Assembly: GCA_016125035.1 (NCBI GenBank)
Contig: WGMN01000001.1
Span: 193,526-257,525 of the forward strand
Source: Pseudomonadota bacterium
GTDB lineage: Bacteria > Pseudomonadota > Alphaproteobacteria > UBA2136 > UBA6156
Reading direction: 5' to 3'
DNA: 64,000 nucleotides
Within the stretch, counting starts at the first letter, position 1, and each line of letters opens with the position of its first letter. The notes under the pieces were generated by a model. The model worked only from the letters and a program-made list of their open reading frames with translations, was not told the DNA's origin and ran no database searches. This document shows positions 4,975-62,676 of the stretch, one piece after another. The translations under genes and the position numbers were made by a program.

Positions 4975-5820
4975 TTAGGGTTGAAGAGGCGTTGACATAG
5001 AAATATCCAGTGCCGTGCGCAGGTGCGCGGGGATGGAAGGGGCATCCAGGATGGTGCTGTGGGTGGTGCCGGGGATGGGCATCACGGTGGCGCTGGTGAG
5101 GTGAGAAGCCAAGATTTCAATATGATGGGAGGGGATCAAGCCGTCGGTGGGGGCATACAGGATGGTGGTGCGGGCGCTGACGTGATCGATAATATCTTCT
5201 GTTGCCCAGGGATATTTGAGCAACCAGCGGACGGGCAGCCAGGGGTATTTCTCTTCAGCCAGGCGGCGGATGGAGGCCGGCGGGGCGACAAGCACCAGGT
5301 GGTTGAGCGGGCGCTGTGTGGCCAGCCAGGTGGCCACCGCGGTGCCCAGGCTGTAGCCCACCGCGTCGACTTGCGCCGGGTGCAGGCGCTGGTTGAAGGT
5401 ATCGTAGAGGAAGGCGGCGTCGCCCTTGAGTGAGGTCTCGGTGGGTTCGCCGGTGCTGCGCGCGCCAAAGGCGTTGGGGTAGCCACGGTAGGAGAAGCCC
5501 GCCACGGCGACCGAGCCCCCCGGGAAGACGGTGTTTTTGAGGAAGGCGGCGAAGCCCACCACGTCGTGCGCGTTGCCGCCGAAGGCCAGCACCAACGTGG
5601 GGCTGGGCGCGGTGGCGGGGAAGAACACGCCGTTGAGCTGGGTGCCGTCGGCGGTGGTGAGGGTGAGGTGCTCGAACGGTGCTGCTTCTTCCGAGGGGGG
5701 TGGCACGTGGTTGATGGTGCGGGGGAAGACGATGGCGTCTTGGTTAAGGTACAGTTTGCCGACGAACCCCAGCGGAATGAGCAACAGGACCAACAGGGCG
5801 AGGACGATACGGCGGAGCAT
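4975..5820 (-). CDS. Membrane-anchored alpha/beta hydrolase.
   Basis: There is an N-terminal TM helix, a GYSLG nucleophile elbow (GxSxG) and a C-terminal Asp/His region. It lies between cox11 and coxA on the same strand. Confidence 0.65.
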   Translation of the reverse strand: MLRRIVLALLVLLLIPLGFVGKLYLNQDAIVFPRTINHVPPPSEEAAPFEHLTLTTADGTQLNGVFFPATAPSPTLVLAFGGNAHDVVGFAAFLKNTVFPGGSVAVAGFSYRGYPNAFGARSTGEPTETSLKGDAAFLYDTFNQRLHPAQVDAVGYSLGTAVATWLATQRPLNHLVLVAPPASIRRLAEEKYPWLPVRWLLKYPWATEDIIDHVSARTTILYAPTDGLIPSHHIEILASHLTSATVMPIPGTTHSTILDAPSIPAHLRTALDISMSTPLQP

Positions 5821-9135: not shown

Positions 9136-9170
9136 TGTAACCCGTAACCCGGGGCCCGTAACCCGTTATG
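9136..9170. repeat. 35-nt heptamer-periodic element (CGTAACC-type, five units), flanked by the inverted repeat GCACTG...CAGTGC.
   Basis: The sequence reads tgtaacc cgtaacc cggggcc cgtaacc cgttatg. It is 34/35 identical in pattern to the copy at 57012-57046. It lies 9 nt upstream of the rlmJ start codon. Confidence 0.7.
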
Positions 9171-9783: not shown

Positions 9784-11523
9784 TTAACGGTGCCATTCTT
9801 CCGACAGGGTTTGCCACGATTGGCCCTGGACGTGGATGGCGTGCCAGAAGGCCAGCAGGGTGAGGCTGAGCGCCAGGTTGGCGGACTTGGCGTGGGCGAG
9901 GTTGCCGAGCAGTTTTTCAGCCGCGTGGGGGTGGAGGATTTGGGTGAGGATGGGGCTGGTTTGCCAGAGCGCGGCGAGGCGCTCTTTTTTATGGGCGAGG
10001 AAGCTGCCCACCGCCACCGAGAAGCCCTGCTTGCGCGCCCAGGCGAGTTGCGACTGGCCTTGCGCGGCGAGGTGCTGGCGCAGGATGAGCTTGCCGGCAT
10101 CTGGGCGGACTTTGAATTCATCCGGCAGCGAGAAGGCCCATGCGGCGAAGGTGTCATCCAGGTAGGGCACGCGGCCTTCGATGCCGTGAGCCATGGTGGT
10201 GCGGTCTAGCTTTAAGAGCAGGTCGTTGGGGAGCCAGCCCGCGACATCCTGCCCCTGGCGGCTTTGTAGTTTGGTGAGGCCGCGGGTGGGCCAGGGTTGC
10301 TCTGGCGGCGGAGGCGTGGAGACGTTGATCTGGAACAGCGACTGGAAGGGCGCGGCATCGCCGCTGCGGCGGGCTTTGAAGTAGCTGAGCAGGTTGGGCT
10401 TTTTGCGGTAGGCCGGGTAGCCGGCGAGCATTTCATCACCGCCCTCCCCCGAGAGCAGGATCTTCACGTCCTCACGTGCGCGGGCGGTGAGCTTGAGCAG
10501 TGGCAGGGCGGCGTAGTCTGTCGCCAGGTCATCCATCGCCCAGGCGAGTTTGGGGAGCATTGGCCAGAAGTCGGATTCATCATAGGGCACGGTGGTGTGG
10601 GTGGCGCCGATGCTTTGCGCGAACGAGGCGGCGATATCGGCCTCATTCACCCCGCCTGCCACCATGATGCGCGCGGTGTAGGCGTGCACCGGGGCGCCTA
10701 AGCTCCGCATGGCGAGGGTGACGGCAGTGCTATCCAGCCCGCCGGAGAGCAGGATGCCGTAGGGGACATCGGCCTGCAGGTGGCGGCTGACTGCGGCGGT
10801 GAGCTGCTCGTTGAAATCGTGATTCGTTATTCGTGATTCGTTATTCGTAACTGGGTTGAGGGGGGGCAATTTACGGCGGCGCATGATGATCTTGCCGTGG
10901 CGGACGGTGAGCCTCTCGCCCGGCAAAAGGCGGTGGATGTTTTTGAACAGCGTTTGGCTGCCGGTGGAGTAGTGCCGGTTGAGCAGTTGCGGCAGCACCG
11001 TGAGGTTGGGCTCGGCGCGCACCCAGCCGGCGGCGAGGATGGCTTTGGGCTCGGACGCGAAAATGAAACCGAGATTGGTTTCGGCATAATAAAGCGGTTT
11101 GATGCCGAAGGGATCGGTGGCGAGGTAAAGCGTTTCTGTTGCGCCATCGGCCAGGGCCAGGGCGTACATGCCCTGTAGCTCTTCCAGCGCCCCTTCCCCG
11201 ATTTGGGTGAAGCGGTGCAGGGGTGGTTCGCTATCCGACGCGGTGTGCAGGCGGGCGCCGTTTTGGGTGGCGAGGGTTTGCAGCGCTTTGTAGTTGTAGA
11301 TTTCGCCGTTCACCACGATGGCGGTTTTGCCTGCGACAAGGGGTTGGCGGCCGCCCGAGATATCGATGATGGAAAGGCGGCGGTGGGCGAGGCCGAGGCT
11401 GGCGTGGGTGAAGGTGCCTTCGCCATCTGGCCCGCGGTGGGCCAGCGCGGCGAGCAAAGGGGCCAGATGTTTGGCCGTGGCCTTTTGGCTTTTGATGAGA
11501 CTGACGCCGGCGATTCCGCACAT
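9784..11523 (-). CDS. asnB: Asparagine synthetase (glutamine-hydrolysing).
   Basis: It begins MCGIAG, the N-terminal Cys nucleophile. It has the glutamine amidotransferase class-II domain plus the synthetase SGGLDS motif. An embedded heptamer element encodes TNNESRITNHD. Confidence 0.85.
   Translation of the reverse strand: MCGIAGVSLIKSQKATAKHLAPLLAALAHRGPDGEGTFTHASLGLAHRRLSIIDISGGRQPLVAGKTAIVVNGEIYNYKALQTLATQNGARLHTASDSEPPLHRFTQIGEGALEELQGMYALALADGATETLYLATDPFGIKPLYYAETNLGFIFASEPKAILAAGWVRAEPNLTVLPQLLNRHYSTGSQTLFKNIHRLLPGERLTVRHGKIIMRRRKLPPLNPVTNNESRITNHDFNEQLTAAVSRHLQADVPYGILLSGGLDSTAVTLAMRSLGAPVHAYTARIMVAGGVNEADIAASFAQSIGATHTTVPYDESDFWPMLPKLAWAMDDLATDYAALPLLKLTARAREDVKILLSGEGGDEMLAGYPAYRKKPNLLSYFKARRSGDAAPFQSLFQINVSTPPPPEQPWPTRGLTKLQSRQGQDVAGWLPNDLLLKLDRTTMAHGIEGRVPYLDDTFAAWAFSLPDEFKVRPDAGKLILRQHLAAQGQSQLAWARKQGFSVAVGSFLAHKKERLAALWQTSPILTQILHPHAAEKLLGNLAHAKSANLALSLTLLAFWHAIHVQGQSWQTLSEEWHR
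10818..10852. repeat. 35-nt heptamer-periodic element (CGTGATT/CGTTATT-type, five units) inside the asnB CDS, in frame.
   Basis: The units are cgtgatt cgttatt cgtgatt cgttatt cgtaact. On the coding (minus) strand it translates to ...TNNESRITNHD... without a frameshift. Confidence 0.75.
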
Positions 11524-11556
11524 ACCCAACGGTATAGGCGGAATCGGCGCGGACGT

Positions 11557-49517: not shown

Positions 49518-50285
49518 ATGGGGATGAGGTGCTTTGCGATTTTACTGGCTTTGGTCATGCCGTTGGCCGCCCATGCGGCGGTGCCGGCCAGCGGCCGGGT
49601 GGCCAAGGTGATTGACGGCGACACGGTGGTTTTGGCCAGCGGTGAGCATGTGCGCCTTTTGGACATAAACACGCCGGAGATTGGGCACGATGACGAACCG
49701 GATGAACCGGGTGCGCGTGCGGCCAGTGTGGCGCTGCGGAACATGGCGCTGGGCAAGGACGTGAAGCTGGTTTACGGCCCGCAGGAGTACGACCAGTATG
49801 GACGGCTTCTGGCGCATCTTTATTTACAGGACGGAAGTTGGGTGAATGGGGAGCTTGTGGCGCAAGGTTTGGCGCATATTTACACCTTTGGCGACAATGA
49901 ATTGAAAACCGCGCAGCTTTTGCCGCTGGAAGAGAAGGCGCGGGCAGAGAAAAAAGGGTTGTGGGCGCTGCCGCAATGGCGCGTGTTTGATGCGGCAAGT
50001 TGTTGTGGGGACGGGGAAATTGGGCGGTATATTCTGGTGAAAGGCAAGCCGTTGGCGGTGGTGGTTAAAAAGGATGAGACGTATTTTAACTTTGGGCCGG
50101 ATTTCCGCACTGATTTTACCGTGGAGGTGGAAAAGAAGGACATGCGCTGGTTCAAGAAAGCCGGAATTAAGGATTTGGCGGCTTATTATGGCGGCAAGGA
50201 GCTGCTGGTGCGCGGCAAAACCGCGCCGGTGAACGGCGTTTTGATGCGGGTGACGCACCCCGCGCAGATTGAAATTGTGGAATGA
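49518..50285 (+). CDS. Secreted thermonuclease (staphylococcal nuclease/SNase homolog).
   Basis: A signal peptide MGMRCFAILLALVMPLAAHA is followed by the SNase motifs VIDGDTVVL and VRLLDINTPE. Its stop lies 4 nt before the mutS start. Confidence 0.85.
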   Translation: MGMRCFAILLALVMPLAAHAAVPASGRVAKVIDGDTVVLASGEHVRLLDINTPEIGHDDEPDEPGARAASVALRNMALGKDVKLVYGPQEYDQYGRLLAHLYLQDGSWVNGELVAQGLAHIYTFGDNELKTAQLLPLEEKARAEKKGLWALPQWRVFDAASCCGDGEIGRYILVKGKPLAVVVKKDETYFNFGPDFRTDFTVEVEKKDMRWFKKAGIKDLAAYYGGKELLVRGKTAPVNGVLMRVTHPAQIEIVE

Positions 50286-50289
50286 TATC

Positions 50290-52998
50290 ATGGCAGTAGC
50301 GGATAGCCCGGTGATGAAGCAATACCAGGCGGTGAAGGCACAGTACCCGGATGCGGTGGTGATGTTTCGCATGGGAGATTTTTACGAGATGTTTGGGCCG
50401 GATGCTTTGCAAGCATCTGAAATACTGGGGATAACTTTGACCAAGCGGCGCACCGCGCAGGCGGGAGATGAGGGCGTGCCGATGTGTGGCGTGCCCTACC
50501 ATGCAGGTGAGGGGTATATTGGCAAGTTGTTGAAACATGGCGTGAAAGTTGCGCTGGCCGAGCAGGTGGAGAGCCCTGAGGCGGCCAAAAAAGCGCGGGG
50601 TTCCGCCGCCATTGTGCGGCGGGAGGTGGTGCGGCTTTATACGCCGGGGACGCTGACGGAAGAGGCTTATCTGGTTGATAAGACGCCAAGTTATTTAGTG
50701 ACGGTGTGTGACGACAGAGGGGCGGCAAAAGGCGGCGAAACGCTGCAAAACGCTGCAGTGGAGCGGCAAAAAGGCGGCAACGGCGCGGCGGCAGGCGGCG
50801 GAACACTGCAAAGCGCGGCGGCGCGCTGGGAAGGTGTGGTGGCGTGGCTGGATGTTTCCACCGGAGAAGTGGGGTGGCGCAGTGTGACCGGCGCGAGTTT
50901 GCCGCAGGTGCTGGCGGCGCTGCCGGTGGGCGAGACGGTGGTGCCGGGCACGCTGGAAGACACCGTGTGCGCGTGGCTGCCGCGGCGCCAGGTGAGTGTG
51001 CATGACGGCTTGTTTGCGCGCAGCAGCGCGGAGAGTGCCCTGGCGCGGGCTTATGGTGTGCAGGAAGTGGGTGGATTAGGCCTGACCAGCCCCCACGCAG
51101 TGCAGGCGGTGGGCGCGCTGGTGGGTTATGCCGAATTGACGCAGATGGGCAAGTTGCCGCGCCTGATGAACCCGCGCGAGGTGAGTGGGCGCGCGCGGCT
51201 GGCGATGGATGTTTCCACGCGCAGGAATTTGGAACTGACCGAGAGTTTAAGTGGGCGGCGTGCCGACAGTTTGCTGGGTGTGCTGGACCGCACCGTGACC
51301 AGTGCGGGCGGGCGTTTGCTGGGGCGTTGGGTGGCCGAGCCGTTGGCGAATGTGGGAGAGATAAAGGCGCGGCAGAATGCCGTGGGTGTGCTGGGGCAGG
51401 GTGACAGGGTCTCAGGATCTCAGGATCTCAGGGGGCGGGTGCGGGAGTTGCTGAAGGACACCGGCGATGTGGCGCGTTGTGTGAGCCGGTTGTTGCTGGG
51501 GCGTGGCGGACCAAGGGACCTGGCGGTGTTGCGCGGCACCGGTGCGGTGCTGCCGGAGCTGGCCAAGGTGTTGCAAGGATGCGAAGGATTGCTGGCTGAG
51601 CAGGCGGTTGGGCTGAACGGATTGGGCGAGCTGACCGCGTTGCTGGAACGCGCGCTGGCGGATGACCCCCTGCCCGCGCTGGTGCGCGATGGTGGGTTTA
51701 TCCGCGAGGGGTTTGACGGGGAGTTGGACGGCTACCGCAAACTTTCCACCGATGGCAATGCGTTGCTGGCGGCACTGGAAGAAAAGGAAGCGCGCGGTTG
51801 CGGCATGGGGGCCAAACTGCGTTTTAACCAGGTGTGGGGGTATTATCTGGAAGTGACCAAGGTGCAGATGGGCGGGGGGAAAACCCCTGACCATTGGGTG
51901 CACCGCCAGACCACCACGCAAACCCACCGCTACACCACGCCGGAATTGATGGTGTTGGAGCGCGAGCTGGGCAGCGCCGGGGCCAAGGTGCAGCGGCGCG
52001 AAGAAGAGCTTCTGGCCGAACTTTTGGAAGCGGTGAAGGCAGCCAGTTATGCGCTGCTGGCGGCGAGTGAGGCGTTGGCGGTGCTGGATGTGGTGGCCAC
52101 GCTGGCCGAGGTGGCGGTGCGGCTGGGCTGGATTTGCCCGCTGGTGGATGACAGCGAGGCCTTTGCGGTTGAGGGCGGCAAGCACCCGGTGGTGGCCGCG
52201 CGGGTGAGCGATTTTGTGGCCAACGGTTGCGACTTGAGTGGTGGCCAGTTGTGGTTGCTGACCGGCCCGAACATGGCGGGGAAGAGCACTTTTCTGCGCC
52301 AGAATGCGTTGATCCTGATCCTGGCGCAGATGGGGAGCTTCGTGCCCGCAGTGAAGGCGCATGTGGGCGTGGCGGATGCGGTGTTCTCCCGCATTGGTGC
52401 GGCGGATGACTTGGCCGCCGGGCAGAGTACGTTCATGGTGGAGATGGTGGAGACCGCGGCGATTTTGAACCGTGCGACCAGCCGCAGTTTGGTGATTTTA
52501 GACGAGTTGGGGCGGGGCACCGCCACCTATGACGGGTTGGCGATCGCGTGGGCGTGTGTGGAAGACGTGGCCGGGCGCATTGGTTGCCGCACGCTGTTTG
52601 CCACCCACTACCATGAGCTGACGGCGTTGCAGGCGACGTTGGAGCGCGTGAGTTGCTGGCAAGTGGCGGTGCGGGAATGGAAGGGGGAAATTGTTTTCCT
52701 CCACGAGGTGAAGCCTGGTGCGGCGGCGGGGAGTTACGGTGTGCAGGTGGCGAAGCTGGCGGGGGTTCCGCAGGGTGTGGTGGCGCGGGCACAGGGGTTG
52801 CTGGATGGATTTTTGAAAGTGGCGCATGGGCGGGGAGTGGCGCGCGTGGATGAGCTGAGTTTGTTTGCCGCGCCGGTGCGTGCGGCGGCGCGTGAGGAGA
52901 ATGAGATTGAGAAGCGGTTGAAGGGGATGGATGTGGATGGGTTGAGTGCGCGCGAGGCGCTGGAGGAGCTTTACCGGTTGCGGGGGATGGTGAATTGA
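50290..52998 (+). CDS. mutS: DNA mismatch repair protein MutS.
   Basis: The N-terminus is PVMKQYQAVKAQYPDAVVMFRMGDFYEMF. It has the Walker A GPNMAGKST and STFMVEM motifs, and a C-terminal dimerization region. There is a low-complexity insertion after the mismatch-binding domain. Confidence 0.95.
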   Translation: MAVADSPVMKQYQAVKAQYPDAVVMFRMGDFYEMFGPDALQASEILGITLTKRRTAQAGDEGVPMCGVPYHAGEGYIGKLLKHGVKVALAEQVESPEAAKKARGSAAIVRREVVRLYTPGTLTEEAYLVDKTPSYLVTVCDDRGAAKGGETLQNAAVERQKGGNGAAAGGGTLQSAAARWEGVVAWLDVSTGEVGWRSVTGASLPQVLAALPVGETVVPGTLEDTVCAWLPRRQVSVHDGLFARSSAESALARAYGVQEVGGLGLTSPHAVQAVGALVGYAELTQMGKLPRLMNPREVSGRARLAMDVSTRRNLELTESLSGRRADSLLGVLDRTVTSAGGRLLGRWVAEPLANVGEIKARQNAVGVLGQGDRVSGSQDLRGRVRELLKDTGDVARCVSRLLLGRGGPRDLAVLRGTGAVLPELAKVLQGCEGLLAEQAVGLNGLGELTALLERALADDPLPALVRDGGFIREGFDGELDGYRKLSTDGNALLAALEEKEARGCGMGAKLRFNQVWGYYLEVTKVQMGGGKTPDHWVHRQTTTQTHRYTTPELMVLERELGSAGAKVQRREEELLAELLEAVKAASYALLAASEALAVLDVVATLAEVAVRLGWICPLVDDSEAFAVEGGKHPVVAARVSDFVANGCDLSGGQLWLLTGPNMAGKSTFLRQNALILILAQMGSFVPAVKAHVGVADAVFSRIGAADDLAAGQSTFMVEMVETAAILNRATSRSLVILDELGRGTATYDGLAIAWACVEDVAGRIGCRTLFATHYHELTALQATLERVSCWQVAVREWKGEIVFLHEVKPGAAAGSYGVQVAKLAGVPQGVVARAQGLLDGFLKVAHGRGVARVDELSLFAAPVRAAAREENEIEKRLKGMDVDGLSAREALEELYRLRGMVN

Positions 52999-57011: not shown

Positions 57012-57046
57012 CGTAACCCGTAACCCGTGGCCCGTAACCCGTTGGA
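57012..57046. repeat. 35-nt heptamer-periodic element (CGTAACC-type, five units).
   Basis: The sequence reads cgtaacc cgtaacc cgtggcc cgtaacc cgttgga, nearly identical to the copy at 9136-9170. It lies 3 nt after the AI-2E stop and 10 nt before the four-helix-bundle gene start. Confidence 0.7.
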
Positions 57047-58155: not shown

Positions 58156-58692
58156 TTGGGTAGAAAATACCTGCTGGTTCCCATCCCCAAAAATCCCTAC
58201 TCCCGTATAGGCCCACTGCGATGGCAGGATTGGTGGCGCCAGGTGGAAAAGACCTCATCGCTGGCACGAAAGCTAAAGGCCGAAGGCCATGAAACGTGGG
58301 TGGTGTTGCTTTCAGACTTCAAGCCTCGCGGAAAGTTGCCAGAGCTAGAGATTTACCAGCAGGCCTTTGCCCAGGTAGCCCCGGAACTTGAGGTGAAAGC
58401 GTATCGCGAAACCAACGATACGCTGGGCCAGGTGGAACGCAGCCTTGAGTTGCGCGATAAAGAACAGGCGGTGCTGGTTTTCGTCAGCGCGTGGATGCAG
58501 TATCCGCGGGTTGTCTACCTGGCCCGCAAAGAAGGCGCACGCCATTATGGCGTCTTCGGTATTCCCCAACCGGCCTTTGCGTTGATAGACCCTTTTTGCA
58601 TGCTGACCTACCCTTTGGTGGAATGGCTTGGGTTGGGCAGGTTTTTCCAGCGTATTCTTTTAAGACGGCGTGAAGAGGGCCGTATTCTCTAG
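58156..58692 (+). CDS. DUF218 (YdcF/ElyC-like) domain protein.
   Basis: The pattern is WVVLLSD...EIYQQAF...RETNDTLGQ...LVFVSAWMQYPRVVYLARKEG. This resembles the DUF218 core (SEA..M, sT.eN, VTsa.HmpRa). GC is lower than in the flanks. Confidence 0.45.
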   Translation: MGRKYLLVPIPKNPYSRIGPLRWQDWWRQVEKTSSLARKLKAEGHETWVVLLSDFKPRGKLPELEIYQQAFAQVAPELEVKAYRETNDTLGQVERSLELRDKEQAVLVFVSAWMQYPRVVYLARKEGARHYGVFGIPQPAFALIDPFCMLTYPLVEWLGLGRFFQRILLRRREEGRIL

Positions 58693-59750
58693 ACTTCATC
58701 CAGGCGGATGATGTGGGCGTGGGGCAGGGCCGGGGCCTCGGTATCGGTGAGCCAGACCTGGCAGCCGAGTTTGCCCAGGGTGGTGAGGAGCTGGCCGCGG
58801 CGCGCGGCATCCAGGTGGGCGGAGAACTCATCGATAAGAACCACCGGGGGCTGTTTAAGATGCGTCTTAAGCAGTTGGACGTGCGCCACCAGCCAATGGA
58901 TGAGGCCGCGCTTGTGTTGGCCGGAGGAAGCCTGCGCGAGTGTGGTGGTGGTGCCGTCTTCCAGCGTGAGGTGGCCGGTGACCTCCAGCGTGTTGGGGCC
59001 GGCGTGGGTGCGCTCCATGCGTGTGTCGATGTCGCGCGACCTTTCAAACTTGCCTTTGAGCGCCATGACCGGGTCGGCGTCCTCTAGGACCGCCAGCGCG
59101 TTACCGGCCAGCTGGAGCGTGAGAGAGCTGCCCAGGTGGGGCACCAGCGCGGCCAGATATTCTTGCCGGTGGCGCAACACCTGGATACCCCATTCCGCGC
59201 AGAGTTTCTCTTCAGCTTCCAGCCAGTCGTCGGCGCGGCCCTGCACCAGCAGCTTTAAGCGCGCCTGGCGGTGCTGGGCAAAGCGCGCCACCGCCTGTGC
59301 GTGGGCGGGGATGAGCGCGGTGGTGGCATCATCCAGCCAGCGGCGGCGCCCGGCGGGTGGGCCGGAAAAGAGGAAATCGGTGGCGGGGGTGAGCCACAGG
59401 ATGGTGTGGAGTTTGGCCAGGCCTTCCAGCGCCTGTTTGTGCCCGTCGACGTGGAGGAGGCGCTCGGCCTTGCGGAAGGTTTGGCCGATTTCGTGATCCG
59501 TGATTCGTGATTCGTGATTGGTGAACGCGGCCCACAGGCCCCATTCCTTCTGGCCGTGGCGGATTTGCGCTTTGCCTTCCGCACCCAGCAGGCCGCGGGT
59601 GGGGGTGAACAGCGACAAGGCCTCCAGCACAGAGGTTTTGCCCACGCCGTTGGGCCCCACCAGCGCCACCACCGCGGCGTTTTGCGGCACCGCAAGGGTG
59701 AGTGCCGCAAGGTTGCGGAAGTTGCTGAGCTTAAGCTGGGTGACGGCCAT
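58689..59750 (-). CDS. recF: DNA replication and repair protein RecF.
   Basis: It has Walker A GPNGVGKTSVLEA, the ABC signature and D-loop. It is collinear with E. coli RecF. An embedded heptamer element encodes TNHESRITDHE. Confidence 0.9.
   Translation of the reverse strand: MAVTQLKLSNFRNLAALTLAVPQNAAVVALVGPNGVGKTSVLEALSLFTPTRGLLGAEGKAQIRHGQKEWGLWAAFTNHESRITDHEIGQTFRKAERLLHVDGHKQALEGLAKLHTILWLTPATDFLFSGPPAGRRRWLDDATTALIPAHAQAVARFAQHRQARLKLLVQGRADDWLEAEEKLCAEWGIQVLRHRQEYLAALVPHLGSSLTLQLAGNALAVLEDADPVMALKGKFERSRDIDTRMERTHAGPNTLEVTGHLTLEDGTTTTLAQASSGQHKRGLIHWLVAHVQLLKTHLKQPPVVLIDEFSAHLDAARRGQLLTTLGKLGCQVWLTDTEAPALPHAHIIRLDEV
59492..59526. repeat. 35-nt heptamer-periodic element (CGTGATT-type, five units) inside the recF CDS, in frame.
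   Basis: The units are cgtgatc cgtgatt cgtgatt cgtgatt ggtgaac. On the coding (minus) strand it translates to ...FTNHESRITDHEIG.... Confidence 0.75.
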
Positions 59751-59756
59751 AAAAGA

Positions 59757-59791
59757 CGTTACTCGTGATTCGTGATTCGTGACTAGTGGTT
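59757..59791. repeat. 35-nt heptamer-periodic element (CGTGATT-type), beginning 7 nt upstream of the recF start codon.
   Basis: The units are cgttact cgtgatt cgtgatt cgtgact agtggtt. It occupies the position where a recF ribosome-binding site would be expected. Confidence 0.7.
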
Positions 59792-59897
59792 TGTGGGCAA
59801 AAAGGGGCGGCTTGCATGCCGCCCCCTGCCCACCAATTGAAGTTGTTTTTCCGGGCCGTTCTTCCCCTGCCCCGGCGCCCTTCTGTGTGGCGTGGCG

Positions 59898-61013
59898 CTA
59901 GACCCGCATCGGCATCACCACGAAGGTGGTGGAGCCGTCGGTTGGGTCTTTCACCATCACGGGTGAGGAAGCGTCCTTGAAGAAGAAAGTCATGTCGTCG
60001 CCGCTTACCTGGGTGCCGATATCGGCCAGGTAGCGGGCGTTGAAACCGATTTCCATTTCCGGGCCTTTGTAATCGGCCTTGACCTCTTCGCTGGCATTTT
60101 CCTGGTCGGGGTTGTTGGCGGACAGGGCCAGGGCGTTATCAATAACCCCAAAGCGCACCGAGCGGGTTTTTTCGTGGCTGAGGATGCTGACGCGGTCGAC
60201 CGCCTGGAGCAGGCTTTTGCGCGCCACGGTGAGTTGCGAGTTGTTGTCTTTGGGGATGACGCGGTCGTAGTCTGGGTAGGTGGCGTCGATGACTTTGCTG
60301 GTGAGCGTGATGTCGGTGGCTTCCGCCTGGATCTTTTTATCGCTGACGGTGAGTTTGATCTCCTTCGATTCGTCGGCGAGCTTCTTCAATTCGGTGACGC
60401 ATTTGCGCGGCAGGATGACCGAGGGCATTTCCTCGGCGGCGTCCGGGCAGGCAATTTCCGCCTTGGCCAGGCGGTGGCCGTCGGTGGCGACGGTGCGCAG
60501 GGTGGGTGTGCCGTCGACCTCCACCACGTGCAGGTAGACGCCGGTGAGGTAGGCGCGGGTTTCGTCTGCGCTGGCGGCGAATTGCACCTTATCCAGCAAT
60601 TTTTTCAGCTCGGCGGAAGGCAGGGTGAAGGTGACGCCGCCGTCGACCTTGGTCATGTCCGGGAAGGCATCCGCGTTAAGTGTGGCCAGGCTGAATTTGG
60701 CCTTGCCCGCGGTGAGCGCCAGGCGCGAGCCACCCTCGGTGGTTTCAAGGTTGACCATCACCCCTTCGGGGATCTTGCTGATGATCTCGAACAGTTTGAG
60801 CGCGCCGACAGTGGTGGTGCCGGTGCTATCCACAAAGGCCTCGGCCACGCCTTGCACGGCGAGGTCGTTATCCGTAGCTGTGGTTTCCAGCTGGTTTTTG
60901 CCGGCGGAGAGGCGGACGTTGCCGAGGATGGCGATGCTGGAGCGCTTTTCCACCACACTGCTCATGTGGCGGAGGGCGCGGAAGAGGGTTTCGCGTGAGA
61001 TGCTGAGTTTCAT
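59898..61013 (-). CDS. dnaN: DNA polymerase III beta subunit (sliding clamp).
   Basis: The N-terminus is MKLSISRETLFRALRHMSSVVEKR. It has the three-domain clamp architecture. The internal ATG was chosen. Confidence 0.95.
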   Translation of the reverse strand: MKLSISRETLFRALRHMSSVVEKRSSIAILGNVRLSAGKNQLETTATDNDLAVQGVAEAFVDSTGTTTVGALKLFEIISKIPEGVMVNLETTEGGSRLALTAGKAKFSLATLNADAFPDMTKVDGGVTFTLPSAELKKLLDKVQFAASADETRAYLTGVYLHVVEVDGTPTLRTVATDGHRLAKAEIACPDAAEEMPSVILPRKCVTELKKLADESKEIKLTVSDKKIQAEATDITLTSKVIDATYPDYDRVIPKDNNSQLTVARKSLLQAVDRVSILSHEKTRSVRFGVIDNALALSANNPDQENASEEVKADYKGPEMEIGFNARYLADIGTQVSGDDMTFFFKDASSPVMVKDPTDGSTTFVVMPMRV

Positions 61014-61092
61014 GACCCGGAGAATAGGCTTTTTGGCCGCGGACGCCAAGCGGGATGGCTAGATTGCGTGCAAAATGTCACGGCGGCAGGAA

Positions 61093-61128
61093 ACGGCGGG
61101 AAAAAACCGCCTGACGGCGGTTTTTTTA
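61093..61128 (-). terminator. Rho-independent terminator of dnaA. It is bidirectional, with an A-run, hairpin, then T-run.
   Basis: The sequence is aaaaaa-ccgcc-tgac-ggcgg-ttttttt. The dnaA stop codon lies within the T-run. Confidence 0.65.
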
Positions 61129-62559
61129 ACGGCCTTGCAGCGTGCGGGTGACCAGCTGGACCTGCTCGGCAAGCTGGGCGTCTCGCGGCAGCAGCGCGAC
61201 GATGGTCTCGCAGGCGTGGATGACGGTGGTGTGGTCACGCCCGCCGAACGCCCGGCCGATGTCCGGGTACGAGCGGCTGGTGAGCTGCTTGGCCAGGTAC
61301 ATGGCCACCTGGCGCGGGCGGGCCACCTCGCGCGCGCGGCGCGGGGAGTGCATGTCGGACACGCGGATGTTGAACTGAGTGGCGACCTTTTGCTGGATGT
61401 CATCGATGGTGATGACGCGGTTGTAGACGCGGAAGAGATCGCGCAGCTGGTCGCGGGCGAGGTCGGGCGTGAGGGCCTCGCCGGTGAGGCGGGCGTAGGC
61501 CACCAGGCGGTTGAGCGCGCCTTCCAGCTCGCGCACGTTGGAGGCGATCTGCGCGGCGAGGAGTTGCAACACCTCGGCCGGCACGGTGTAGCCCATGCTT
61601 TCCGCTTTGGATTGGAGGATGGCCAGGCGGGTTTCTTCTTCCGGGGCGTGCACCTCGACCGTGAGGCCGCTGCCCAGGCGCGACTTGAGGCGCTCTTCGA
61701 TGTTGGGAAGTTCGTGCGGGGACCTATCTGCCGTGAGCACCACCTGCTTGCCGGCCTGAATGAGGGTGTTGAAGGTGTGGAAGAACTCTTCTTGCGTGGC
61801 GTCCTTGCCGGCGATGAATTGGAGATCGTCGATCATCAGCACGTCGACCGAGCGGAAGAGCTCTTTGAAGCCGAGGGTGTTTTTATCCTTGAGGGCGCGG
61901 ATGAACTTGTAGAGGAACTGCTCGGCGGAAAGGTAGAGCACGTTGGTGGGTTTGCCAGATTCCAGCACCGCGTGGCCGATGGCCTGCATAAGGTGGGTTT
62001 TGCCCAGCCCCACCCCGCCGTGGAGGAAGAAGGGGTTGTAGGCGACCTTGCCCTGGGTGAGGGCCTCGGCCACGCTTTGCGCGGCGGTGAAGGCGAACTG
62101 GTTGGACTTGCCGGTGACGAACTGGTGGAAGCCGTAGCGCGCATCCAGGCGGCTGCCGGAGAGCCACTCCGGCGCGGCAGCCTCGGGCGCGGTGGGGGAC
62201 ATGACCGCTGCCTGAATGCTTTGCGGGGCAGAGGCCGACACGGCAAAGGTGGGGACGACTTGAAGCTCGATGGCGACCGGGCGGCCGGCCTGGCTGGAGA
62301 GTTGCTCTTCCAGCTGGGTGAGATAGTTGCCCCGGACCCATTGGGCAATGAAGGTGGTGGGAGCGGCAAGGGTGAGGGAATCGGCAGTGACGGCCTGAAC
62401 TTTGAGAGGAGCCAGCCAGGCGGCGTAGTTCTCATCGCCGAAGGTGGCGGGGAGAGTGGTTTGCAGGTCATCCCACAACAAGGCCAGCGGCGGCACCGCA
62501 CCGGCCGTGGCAGCGGATTTCCCTTGAACGGAGACGCCGGCAGCGGGGGCAGTGTGCAT
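61126..62559 (-). CDS. dnaA: Chromosomal replication initiator protein DnaA.
   Basis: It has the AAA+ Walker [14 protein letters not shown], box VII and sensor motifs. A C-terminal DNA-binding domain reads [24 protein letters not shown]. Confidence 0.95.
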
Positions 62560-62676
62560 GGACGAGGAACCTTTTTGTTGGTGGTTGCTGGTATGTACCT
62601 TGCTCTACCTTGCTCTACTTTTTCAGGGGGGGTCAAGAGAAAAAGTTTGAGTTTTTTCAACCACTTATATACAAAA

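What the first reader, a model, noticed from the sequence alone, without database searches (positions are those of the whole stretch)
59492..59526. Heptamer element embedded in-frame inside recF, encoding ...TNHESRITDHE...
A 35-nt heptamer array sits inside an essential, highly conserved gene without breaking the frame. Against E. coli RecF the region is length-neutral, replacing roughly the GRLQGEERETAIGL segment, so the element-encoded peptide substitutes for native sequence rather than simply adding to it. Seven is not a multiple of three, so any single-unit slippage would frameshift recF. This is either a potential phase-variation or mutator switch, or evidence that the unit number is constrained. 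The situation is analogous to Rickettsia palindromic elements that insert in-frame into ORFs.
Basis: partly seen in the sequence, partly recalled or inferred. Interest (0 to 1): 0.8.

Follow-up and report, generated by a model that had tools for sequence, protein, structure and literature searches.

The report
Heptamer repeat inserted in-frame in recF
A short 7-base tandem repeat really does sit in-frame inside the DNA-repair gene recF of an uncultured alphaproteobacterium, adding seven amino acids at the tip of a surface hairpin, and it is best read as a tolerated by-product of a known, poorly understood tendency of many bacterial genomes to grow 7-base repeats, not as a genetic switch.

Summary
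On the coding (minus) strand, recF (58689-59750) reads TTCACC-(AATCACG)x3-GATCACG-AA, giving T-N-H-E-S-R-I-T-D-H-E in an intact RecF.

It is not chance. There are 5 strong period-7 arrays in 64 kb against 0.05 expected, and an independent assembly is identical.

The closest orthologs lack the peptide, and removing the three perfect units (21 nt, 59499-59519) restores their hairpin ...T-D-H-E-I-G-Q. The ancestral D/E-H-E codons already resembled one unit.

The seven extra residues form the tip of a beta-hairpin that varies in length across RecF proteins. A sister lineage gained a different heptamer array (CACCAGT) at the same codon.

The same AATCACG array also lies in-frame in an asparagine-synthase gene and 13 nt upstream of the recF ATG. 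It occurs in-frame in several unrelated enzyme families in metagenomes.

Arbitrary control heptamers are about as common, so this belongs to the generic heptanucleotide-repeat class (Xanthomonas GGGAATC, Beggiatoaceae TAACTGA).

With only three perfect units, and stable copy number in orthologous pairs elsewhere, a phase-variation or mutator switch is unlikely.

Still unexplained: units recur within a genome, arrays appear conserved at nucleotide level, and the asnB copy is length-neutral.

The parts
58689..59750 (-). recF coding sequence (353 aa), intact
   Evidence: ORF; PDB RecF hits; AlphaFold2 model pLDDT 94.6; Foldseek TM 0.83 to 5z69/2o5v; catalytic motifs fall in invariant columns
59490..59526 (-). 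Heptamer array as a whole: TTCACC(A) + AATCACG x3 + GATCACG + AA, encoding T77-E87
   Evidence: TRF period 7, 5.0 copies, score 56; codon layout
59499..59519 (-). Three perfect AATCACG units (21 nt = N78-T84). This is the net gain relative to the sister clade.
   Evidence: Deleting them gives WAAFTDHEIGQTF (row -3), colinear with P0009 WVQTPDHELGQ, P0016 WAQTPEHEIGQ and P0021 WAEANDHELGQ
59490..59498 (-). GATCACGAA (D85-H86-E87): a unit-like sequence that predates the array (the 'seed')
   Evidence: Relatives without the array have GAC CAC GAA (P0009, P0021) or GAG CAT GAA (P0016) at the homologous codons
59520..59525 (-). TTCACC (F76-T77): degenerate unit on the 5' side. The P0020 array starts after the homologous GTCACC.
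59763..59782 (-). Second array of the same unit (TCACGAATCACGAATCACGA) in the same orientation. It ends 13 nt upstream of the recF ATG. No Shine-Dalgarno sequence lies between them.
   Evidence: TRF 2.9 copies, 100% matches; sequence. Relatives carry a conserved TGCTAAA motif here instead.
59799..59825 (-). Terminator-like hairpin after dnaN (GGGGCGGC-atgcaa-GCCGCCCC-TTTTT). It bounds the short recF upstream region.
   Evidence: Read directly; conserved in relatives L124 and L125; not reported by the simple scan
10817..10848 (-). Same heptamer family (AATCACG/AATAACG, about 5 units) in-frame in an asparagine-synthase gene (9784-11529, minus strand), encoding VTNNESRITNHD in the inter-domain linker
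   Evidence: TRF; ORF; sequence; AsnB alignment; length-neutral against orthologs
9137..9166 (-). Second unit family, GGGTTAC, about 4 units. It ends 9 nt upstream of the ATG of the rlmJ-like gene.
   Evidence: Relative L190 has a single GTGTTAC at the homologous place.
57012..57042 (+). Same second unit (CGTAACC, a rotation of GTAACCC), 4.4 copies, starting 3 nt after the stop codon of the AI-2E-type permease gene

Best explanation
The tract is a heptanucleotide simple-sequence-repeat array, and a member of a genome-wide family of such arrays.

In the lineage leading to this genome, exactly three perfect AATCACG units (21 nt) were added. They sit directly 5' of a pre-existing unit-like stretch, GATCACGAA, which encodes the conserved D/E-H-E of a RecF beta-hairpin. 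The likely route is replication slippage or a short template switch, to which 7-nt units are especially prone in many prokaryotes.

Selection then acted as a filter. Only the strand orientation without stop codons (the complement, TCGTGAT, carries TGA in every frame) and only a net length divisible by three (three units) could survive inside a gene. Survival was also possible only at a site that tolerates extra residues. Here that site is the tip of the hairpin formed by strands 70-77 and 84-93 in the N-terminal ATPase lobe.

The result is a RecF with seven extra hydrophilic residues (NHESRIT) and all catalytic motifs intact. The array most likely has no function of its own in recF and is not a programmed on/off switch.

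Shown: the array, its frame, its absence from orthologs, the three-unit gain, the seed in relatives, the hairpin location, an independent second array at the same codon in a relative, and the generic abundance of heptamer arrays.

Inferred: slippage or template switching as the generating step, and neutrality of the insertion.
For: 1. Derived gain of 3 units. An alignment of 60 RecF proteins shows the peptide only in this genome. In the NJ tree the window is sister to (P0021,(P0009,(P0016,P0020))), and three of those four have the short hairpin x-D/E-H-E. The DNA of the relatives shows the seed GAC/GAG CAC/CAT GAA. Deleting 21 nt restores colinearity.
2. Permissive site. The AlphaFold2 model (pLDDT 94.6) places residues 78-83 in the loop between strands 70-77 and 84-93. 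This hairpin has indels throughout the family.
3. Independent recurrence. P0020, the sister of P0016, carries CACCAGT x4.4 at the same codon, and an 8-mer array elsewhere in recF.
4. Typical repeat anatomy. Perfect core units are flanked by decaying units with no distinct termini, both here and across 108 metagenome arrays of the same unit, whose modal size is 4 units.
5. A seed is also seen for the GGGTTAC array upstream of the rlmJ-like gene, where relative L190 has GTGTTAC.
6. Generic process. Period 7 dominates the tandem repeats in array-bearing contigs (291 of about 670 TRF rows, more than 100 distinct units). Arbitrary control heptamers repeated three times are as frequent as (AATCACG)3 in viral contigs: 5, 22 and 23 stretches against 13. 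The literature reports heptanucleotides as the most abundant long-SSR class in most of the prokaryotic genomes surveyed (Mrazek et al. 2007, as summarised in PMC4679880 and PMC4692102).
7. Filter by orientation and frame. The antisense unit carries TGA. Both coding copies in the window are in the sense orientation. In-frame copies occur in bona fide enzymes elsewhere: radical-SAM HemN-like, GH2 beta-galactosidase, GH106, fumarase, FemAB and BioD-like.
8. Against a switch. There are only 3 perfect units, and copy number is identical in the orthologous pairs L039/L052 and L058/L101.
Against: - Random slippage from random seeds does not explain why the same unit recurs at three places in 64 kb, with a second unit at two. 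It also does not explain why non-seed arrays within one contig share a unit 12 times more often than arrays between contigs (7.2% against 0.62%).
- The three added units begin with A (AATCACG) while the seed unit begins with G (GATCACG). A plain duplication of the seed is therefore not the simplest path.
- The asparagine-synthase copy is length-neutral against orthologs of 71-74% identity, and no seed is visible there. Pure unit addition cannot produce that in one step.
- In two orthologous gene pairs about 81% identical, the in-frame arrays are perfect and identical while the flanking codons differ at many third positions. Single-unit slippage cannot homogenise an array inside a gene, so this hints at constraint or templated renewal. 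The caveat is that both members of each pair were retrieved by requiring a perfect 21-mer.
- Neutrality of the insertion for RecF function is untested.
Confidence: 0.65

Rival explanations
1. The arrays are sequence-specific elements that are copied or renewed from one another, for example by short-patch gene conversion primed on a unit-like seed, and/or are kept by selection as cis-acting sites. One such role would be recognition on mRNA next to start codons. Under this reading the recF-internal copy is collateral, possibly templated by the array about 245 nt upstream in the same orientation.
For: - The same unit occurs at three loci in the window, and a second unit at two.
- Units recur within contigs 12 times more often than between contigs.
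- The added units (AATCACG) match the upstream array rather than the local seed GATCACG.
- The asnB-like copy overwrites a linker codon for codon.
- Arrays are perfectly conserved in pairs about 81% identical.
- 35 of 108 metagenome arrays end 1-17 nt upstream of a start codon in the sense orientation. This matches the TAACTGA repeats of Beggiatoaceae (PMC4679880).
- In the window the upstream array replaces a TGCTAAA motif that is conserved in relatives.
Against: - There are no defined termini. The flanks are simply decaying units.
- Arbitrary control heptamers are equally common.
- Single copies of the unit are not depleted.
- Seeds at homologous positions in relatives fit local growth.
- No candidate enzyme or binding factor was identified.
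- The conservation argument suffers from ascertainment bias.
Confidence: 0.2
2. The array is a contingency locus. Gain or loss of one unit switches recF off and on, producing a reversible recombination-deficient or mutator subpopulation.
For: - A change of 1 or 2 units truncates RecF at 136-170 aa.
- A second array of the same unit lies in the presumptive promoter or leader region.
- mutS in the same window also carries short repeat arrays.
Against: - There are only 3 perfect units plus imperfect ones. The documented heptanucleotide phase-variable tract was studied at 13-24 units.
- Two assemblies give the same allele.
- Arrays of this unit keep the same copy number across orthologs about 81% identical.
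- The same kind of array sits in housekeeping enzymes with no plausible benefit from switching.
- The mutS arrays are imperfect (69-86% matches).
Confidence: 0.07
3. The similarity to the heptamer family is coincidental (NHESRIT is native RecF sequence), or the array is an assembly artefact.
For: The hairpin is about as long as in some distant RecF proteins, such as D. radiodurans.
Against: - None of the 59 other aligned orthologs carries the NHESRIT peptide.
- The nucleotide repeat is perfect over 21 nt.
- The same unit occurs elsewhere in the window at 10 matches against 0.13 expected.
- An independent assembly is identical.
- The frame and all motifs are intact.
Confidence: 0.02

Closest known systems
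Heptanucleotide long simple-sequence repeats of prokaryotes (Mrazek, Guo and Shah 2007, as summarised in PMC4679880 and PMC4692102). Examples: Beggiatoaceae/cyanobacterial TAACTGA repeats (PMC4679880), Xanthomonas GGGAATC and Nostoc GGGGAYT repeats (PMC4692102), Calothrix STRR heptamers.
   Same: - 7-nt units in short direct tandem arrays, usually 2-6 copies with a mode of 4.
- Many dispersed arrays per genome, with one or a few dominant units.
- Mostly intergenic and often within a few nucleotides of a start codon.
- One orientation carries stop codons, so only the other can lie inside genes.
- Origin and function are unknown.
   Different: - The units here (AATCACG, GGGTTAC) were not found in the searched literature.
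- The host is an uncultured alphaproteobacterium.
- The copy in question lies inside a conserved DNA-repair gene, with its ancestral state reconstructed from orthologs. The within-ORF TAACTGA cases found by database search were mostly hypothetical proteins.
- There is no G-quadruplex potential, unlike the Xanthomonas and Nostoc repeats.
Rickettsia palindromic elements (RPE) inserted in-frame in ORFs (own knowledge)
   Same: A dispersed short repeat that can reside in-frame in housekeeping genes at surface-exposed, structurally tolerant positions, adding a peptide segment without destroying function.
   Different: RPEs are about 100-150 bp, palindromic (hairpin-forming) and specific to Rickettsia. 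This tract is a 21-35-nt direct tandem repeat with no hairpin potential, with decaying ends, and with evidence of local growth from a seed.
Phase-variable heptanucleotide SSR of Haemophilus influenzae hmw1A/hmw2A, (ATCTTTC)n (PMC8262952)
   Same: A tandem 7-nt repeat whose unit number can in principle change expression. The recF-upstream array here is likewise next to the start of the gene.
   Different: The hmw repeats were studied at 13-24 units. They lie between promoters of surface adhesin genes, and their variation has been demonstrated. Here there are 3-5 units, one of them inside a repair gene, with no evidence of variation.

Membership tests
Heptanucleotide long-SSR arrays (Mrazek 2007 class; TAACTGA and GGGAATC types) | Direct tandem repeat with a 7-nt unit and a few copies | tested here: met
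   TRF period 7, 5.0 copies (3 perfect)
Heptanucleotide long-SSR arrays (Mrazek 2007 class; TAACTGA and GGGAATC types) | Several dispersed arrays of the same unit in one genome, far above chance | tested here: met
   Three AATCACG arrays and two GGGTTAC arrays in 64 kb; 5 against 0.05 expected
Heptanucleotide long-SSR arrays (Mrazek 2007 class; TAACTGA and GGGAATC types) | Enriched in intergenic DNA close to gene starts or ends; coding copies only in the stop-free orientation | tested here: met
   3 of 5 arrays are intergenic, 9-13 nt before an ATG or 3 nt after a stop codon. Both coding copies are in the sense orientation, and the antisense unit has TGA. The metagenome arrays cluster 1-17 nt upstream of start codons.
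Heptanucleotide long-SSR arrays (Mrazek 2007 class; TAACTGA and GGGAATC types) | Perfect core with decaying units at the edges and no specific termini | tested here: met
Contingency locus (phase-variable SSR) | A long, near-perfect tract giving high slippage rates | tested here: not met
   3 perfect units (21 nt) plus imperfect units, against 13-24 units in hmw1A
Contingency locus (phase-variable SSR) | Unit-number polymorphism within or between populations | not testable with these tools
   No read-level data. Two assemblies are identical. No near-identical RecF variants are in the protein database; the next hit is 66% identical. Other arrays of this unit are stable in orthologous pairs.
Contingency locus (phase-variable SSR) | A change in unit number alters the reading frame or the promoter | tested here: met
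   A change of 1 or 2 units gives premature stops. This is a necessary feature but not a sufficient one.
Rickettsia palindromic element-like in-frame insertion | Palindromic sequence of about 100-150 bp able to form a hairpin | tested here: not met
   35 nt, direct repeat. RNA fold z = -0.86 with the array unpaired. The only inverted repeat found lies outside the array.
Rickettsia palindromic element-like in-frame insertion | In-frame residence at a surface or loop position of a conserved protein, absent from orthologs | tested here: met
RecF (host gene) | SMC-like ABC ATPase fold with Walker A, signature motif, Walker B and H-loop; dnaA-dnaN-recF gene order | tested here: met

The most novel reading that the evidence does not exclude
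Heptamer arrays in this and many other genomes are not passive slippage products. They would be written or renewed by a sequence-directed, templated process (micro gene conversion or an unknown enzyme) and held by selection at the nucleotide level as cis-acting sites near translation starts. Such a process can overwrite coding sequence codon for codon (asnB-like gene) or add whole-unit triplets (recF). That would make it an unrecognised source of peptide innovation in conserved proteins. It would also explain why each genome has its own dominant heptamers.
Probability: 0.12. Interest if true: 0.75.

Novelty: new member of a known kind. Interest (0 to 1): 0.38.

Why it matters
This is a clean, reconstructable example of a non-triplet simple repeat remodelling a conserved protein. 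The ancestral state, the seed, the exact three-unit gain and the structural position can all be read from the data. A second, independent gain with a different heptamer occurred at the same codon in a sister lineage.

It shows which filters decide where such repeats can persist in genes: a stop-free strand, a net length divisible by three, and a permissive hairpin tip.

The side observations bear on an old open question, namely why 7-nt repeats dominate in prokaryotes and where genome-specific heptamer families come from. Those observations are the genome-specific unit families, arrays next to start codons, apparent nucleotide-level conservation, and a length-neutral overwrite.

For annotation, it warns that odd hydrophilic heptad-periodic peptides in housekeeping proteins (NHESRIT, HQSPVTS) are repeat-encoded and not native motifs.

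Tried and rejected
- AATCACG as a special, widely shared element. However, three arbitrary composition-matched heptamers repeated three times were equally or more frequent in viral contigs. The breadth therefore reflects generic heptamer-repeat abundance.
- Every single copy of the unit gets expanded. Single copies occur at roughly expected numbers.
- Defined element ends or a target motif. Flank base frequencies only show decaying units.
- Known RNA family or RNA structure. Rfam finds only two tRNAs in the window, and the fold z-score is -0.86.
- Sigma-70 promoter formed by the upstream array. The consensus scan found none, so my reading of TAGTCA-N17-TAACGT remains speculation.
- CcrM (GANTC) link. 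Unit junctions create GANTC, and 6 of the window's 49 sites lie in the arrays. The same unit occurs in contigs of very different GC content, and the other units lack GANTC, so this was not pursued.
- Literature search for the unit or the peptide returned nothing.
- The genome-contig scan returned only one relative, at 66% identity. No close relative was available to date the insertion.
- Similarity of the units to the Illumina TruSeq index-1 adapter (ATCACG, CCAGTCAC; from memory). This was dismissed because the arrays are internal, in-frame and tandem, and are reproduced in independent assemblies.
Full report
**What is there**

The window carries dnaA (61126-62559), dnaN (59898-61049) and a 353-aa ORF (58689-59750), all on the minus strand. 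The ORF is RecF:
- it matches solved RecF structures by sequence (2o5v, E = 1e-18);
- its AlphaFold2 model (pLDDT 94.6) superposes on RecF crystal structures with TM 0.82-0.84;
- Walker A (G32-T39), the signature motif (S275/G277/K280), Walker B (D307/E308) and H312 all fall in columns that are invariant across 60 homologs.

Tandem Repeats Finder reports a period-7 array at 59490-59524 with 5.0 copies and score 56. On the coding strand it reads TTC ACC AAT CAC GAA TCA CGA ATC ACG GAT CAC GAA ATC, which translates to F-T-N-H-E-S-R-I-T-D-H-E-I. In repeat terms this is a degenerate unit (TTCACCA), three perfect AATCACG units (59499-59519), one GATCACG unit, and the start of another.

**Is it more than chance?**

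- A 14-mer of two units with up to 2 mismatches matches 10 times in the window, against 0.13 expected.
- Period-7 arrays with TRF score >=38 number five, against a mean of 0.05 in 100 third-order Markov shuffles.
- The five arrays use only two units. AATCACG occurs inside recF, 13 nt upstream of the recF ATG at 59763-59782, and inside an asparagine-synthase gene at 10817-10848. GGGTTAC occurs 9 nt upstream of the ATG of an rlmJ-like gene at 9137-9166 and 3 nt after a permease stop codon at 57012-57042.
- A separate Logan assembly of run SRR10063242 is 100% identical to the window over 3062 nt, including both recF arrays. An assembly artefact is therefore unlikely.

**Insertion or replacement?**

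The organism is an uncultured alphaproteobacterium. The best database match is a MAG protein, and the next RecF is only 66% identical.

In an alignment of 60 RecF proteins, no other sequence has the NHESRIT peptide. A neighbour-joining tree places the window as sister to (P0021,(P0009,(P0016,P0020))). Three of those four have a short hairpin: W-x-x-x-x-(D/E)-H-E-(L/I)-G-Q. Their DNA at the site reads:
- ACG CCA GAC CAC GAA CTC (P0009);
- GCC AAT GAC CAC GAA CTT (P0021);
- ACT CCG GAG CAT GAA ATC (P0016).

Removing the 21 nt of perfect repeat from the window gives W-A-A-F-T-D-H-E-I-G-Q-T-F, exactly colinear with these sequences. The array is therefore a net gain of three units (7 aa). It lies immediately 5' of a stretch, GATCACGAA, that already resembled one unit because it encodes the conserved D-H-E.

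The hairpin differs in length across RecF lineages, and the relevant comparison shows an addition.

**Where in the protein?**

The model has beta-strands at 70-77 and 84-93. The inserted residues N78-T84 form the connecting loop and the first residue of the second strand, and confidence dips only slightly there (block means 91 and 84). This is the most indel-rich spot of the N-terminal half of the alignment.

I could not measure distances to DNA, RecR or the dimer interface.

**An independent second case at the same codon**

P0020, the sister of P0016, has 12 extra residues at the same place (HQLPVTSHQSLLSN where P0016 has EH). I predicted from the peptide that this was a translated CACCAGT repeat. 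The DNA confirmed it: CACCAGT x4.4 at L002 7581-7611, starting after GTC ACC, just as the window's array starts after TTC ACC.

The same recF also holds an 8-mer array (ACCTGGCT x4.4) within an 18-aa insertion in another loop.

Two related lineages thus gained different heptamer arrays at one site. This points to a permissive, and perhaps slippage-prone, location rather than to a function of a particular peptide.

**The family in this genome**

The asparagine-synthase copy encodes V-T-N-N-E-S-R-I-T-N-H-D in the linker before the synthetase domain.

All three reading frames of a 7-nt repeat yield the same cyclic heptapeptide, so the shared peptide follows from shared strand alone. The complementary strand (TCGTGAT) carries TGA, so only one orientation can survive in a gene (sequence logic; the same argument is made for TAACTGA in PMC4679880).

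Unlike the recF copy, the asnB-like copy is length-neutral against orthologs of 71-74% identity: VTNNESRITNHD stands where they have ARPWEGPDPVTS. No seed is visible in their DNA.

For the GGGTTAC array upstream of the rlmJ-like gene, a relative has a single GTGTTAC at the homologous position. That is a second instance of a seed.

**The family beyond this genome**

Among these:
- The arrays have a modal size of 4 units, and their flanks are simply decaying units.
- 35 of 108 arrays end 1-17 nt upstream of the start of an ORF of at least 100 aa, in the sense orientation.
- Others are in-frame inside bona fide enzymes confirmed by Pfam: radical-SAM/HemN-like, GH2 beta-galactosidase, GH106 rhamnosidase, fumarase, FemAB, a CCG-domain Fe-S protein, and a BioD-like N-terminus.
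- Period 7 dominates the tandem repeats in these contigs, with more than 100 different units.

As a control, three arbitrary heptamers of the same base composition, each repeated three times, gave 5, 22 and 23 stretches in viral contigs, against 13 for (AATCACG)3. AATCACG is therefore not special in nature. Any heptamer triple repeat is far more common than a random 21-mer should be.

This matches the published picture. Heptanucleotides were the most abundant long simple-sequence repeats in most prokaryotic genomes surveyed. Genome-specific dominant units are known: Xanthomonas GGGAATC with a preference for four units, and Beggiatoaceae TAACTGA with 2-6 copies, mostly just upstream of start codons. 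No mechanism is established (PMC4692102, PMC4679880). Neither the unit nor the peptide appears in the searchable literature.

**Mechanism: best reading**

I conclude that the recF tract is a heptanucleotide simple-sequence-repeat array that grew by three units next to a chance seed. Growth was most likely by replication slippage or a short template switch. The array persisted for three reasons: it is in the stop-free orientation, it adds a multiple of three nucleotides, and it lies at a hairpin tip that tolerates extra residues.

The gain, the seed, the location, the recurrence and the generic nature of heptamer arrays are shown. The generating step and the neutrality of the insertion are inferred. 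Confidence is about 0.65.

**The switch hypothesis**

Gain or loss of one or two units would truncate RecF at 136-170 aa, so the formal requirement for a switch is met. The rest argues against it:
- The perfect tract is only three units, whereas the documented phase-variable heptanucleotide tract of H. influenzae hmw1A was studied at 13-24 units.
- The two assemblies agree.
- Two orthologous gene pairs about 81% identical (BioD-like L039/L052 and HemN-like L058/L101) carry the same four perfect units.
- The same kind of array sits in ordinary metabolic enzymes.

I give the switch reading about 0.07. It can only be settled with read-level data.

**What the simple model does not explain**

- Units recur within genomes. 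The window has five arrays but only two units. Across metagenome contigs, non-seed arrays share a unit in 7.2% of within-contig pairs against 0.62% of between-contig pairs.
- The three added recF units begin with A, like the array 245 nt upstream. The local seed begins with G.
- The asnB-like copy is a codon-for-codon overwrite.
- In the two orthologous pairs, the in-frame arrays are identical while neighbouring third codon positions differ. Single-unit slippage cannot homogenise an array inside a gene. This observation is biased, because both members of each pair were retrieved by requiring a perfect 21-mer.

Together these keep alive a rival reading (about 0.2) in which arrays are copied or renewed from one another, or are selected as cis-acting sites. 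The recF copy would then be collateral.

The upstream recF array is of interest here. In four relatives the ATG is preceded at 5-7 nt by a conserved TGCTAAA(A/T) motif that looks like an extended -10 element of a leaderless-type promoter. In the window that motif is replaced by the array plus GTAACGTCTTTT. The consensus promoter scan found nothing, so this remains an observation.

**Comparison with known systems, and novelty**

The tract meets every feature I could test for the heptanucleotide long-SSR class. It fails the defining size and palindrome features of Rickettsia palindromic elements, although it behaves like them in residing in-frame at a permissive site. It also fails the tract-length criterion of contingency loci.

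It is a new member of a known kind, with new units, a new host lineage and an unusually clear ancestral reconstruction inside a conserved repair gene. Interest is moderate (0.38). A specialist would find the three-unit gain and the independent second array at the same codon neat rather than surprising. The unexplained family-level features are where further work could matter.

Noticed in passing
window 10817-10848 (minus strand), in ORF 9784-11529: The same heptamer array is in-frame in an asparagine-synthase gene. Unlike the recF copy, it is length-neutral: VTNNESRITNHD occupies the same 12 codons as ARPWEGPDPVTS in orthologs of 71-74% identity, and no seed is visible in their DNA.
   Followed up: yes
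window 50721-50780 and 51397-51433, in mutS (50269-52998, plus strand): mutS carries a period-10 array (GGCGGCAAAA x5.8, 69% matches) within a region about 35 aa longer than in E. coli MutS. It also carries a period-8 array (CAGGGTCT x4.6) that coincides with a 9-aa insertion (GQGDRVSGS) relative to E. coli MutS.
   Followed up: partly
window 59751-59830 (minus strand); L002, L003, L124, L125 upstream of recF: In relatives a conserved TGCTAAA(A/T) motif, resembling an extended -10 element, lies 5-7 nt before the recF ATG, which suggests a leaderless-type start. In the window it is replaced by the AATCACG array plus GTAACGTCTTTT, and no Shine-Dalgarno sequence is visible. A conserved terminator-like hairpin follows dnaN.
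   Followed up: partly
L002 7581-7611 and 7987-8021 (recF of P0020); L002 5754-5786: A related genome's recF holds two independent repeat-derived insertions: CACCAGT x4.4 at the same codon as the window's array, and ACCTGGCT x4.4 within an 18-aa insertion. A CTAAAAG x4.7 array lies between dnaA and dnaN.
   Followed up: yes
L039/L052 (BioD-like N-terminus) and L058/L101 (HemN-like radical-SAM gene): Orthologous genes about 81% identical keep identical, perfect four-unit AATCACG arrays in-frame, while flanking third codon positions differ. This hints at nucleotide-level constraint or templated renewal. Ascertainment bias applies.
   Followed up: partly
L043 (about residues 345-375 of a 954-aa ORF): An AATCACG-encoded peptide (ITNHESRITN) and a CACCAGT-encoded peptide (SPVTSHQSPVT) lie a few residues apart in one protein. 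The CACCAGT-type unit (canonical ACCAGTC) was the TRF consensus of 6 of about 150 non-seed heptamer arrays, in several unrelated contigs (L002, L004, L043).
   Followed up: no
metagenome loci L004-L123: [quoted passage not shown] The same placement is described for TAACTGA repeats in Beggiatoaceae.
   Followed up: partly
whole window: GC skew on the plus strand is strongly positive throughout (+0.12 to +0.24 per 8 kb), including across dnaA. No skew switch appears in the window even though dnaA-dnaN-recF is present. All five heptamer arrays have the same orientation on the plus strand.
   Followed up: no
whole window: GANTC (the CcrM site) is strongly under-represented: 49 sites against about 106 expected from a first-order model. 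6 of the 49 lie inside the three AATCACG arrays, whose unit junctions create GAATC every 7 bp.
   Followed up: partly
L126 around 5200-5240 (recF of P0034): P0034 has 3 extra residues at the same hairpin, and its DNA there reads CTCACCA CTCACAG. These two adjacent heptamers are 5/7 identical and may be a decayed or nascent array.
   Followed up: no
window 62596-62618: A perfect 10-nt direct repeat (TACCTTGCTC x2.3) lies just upstream of the dnaA start. It was not examined.
   Followed up: no
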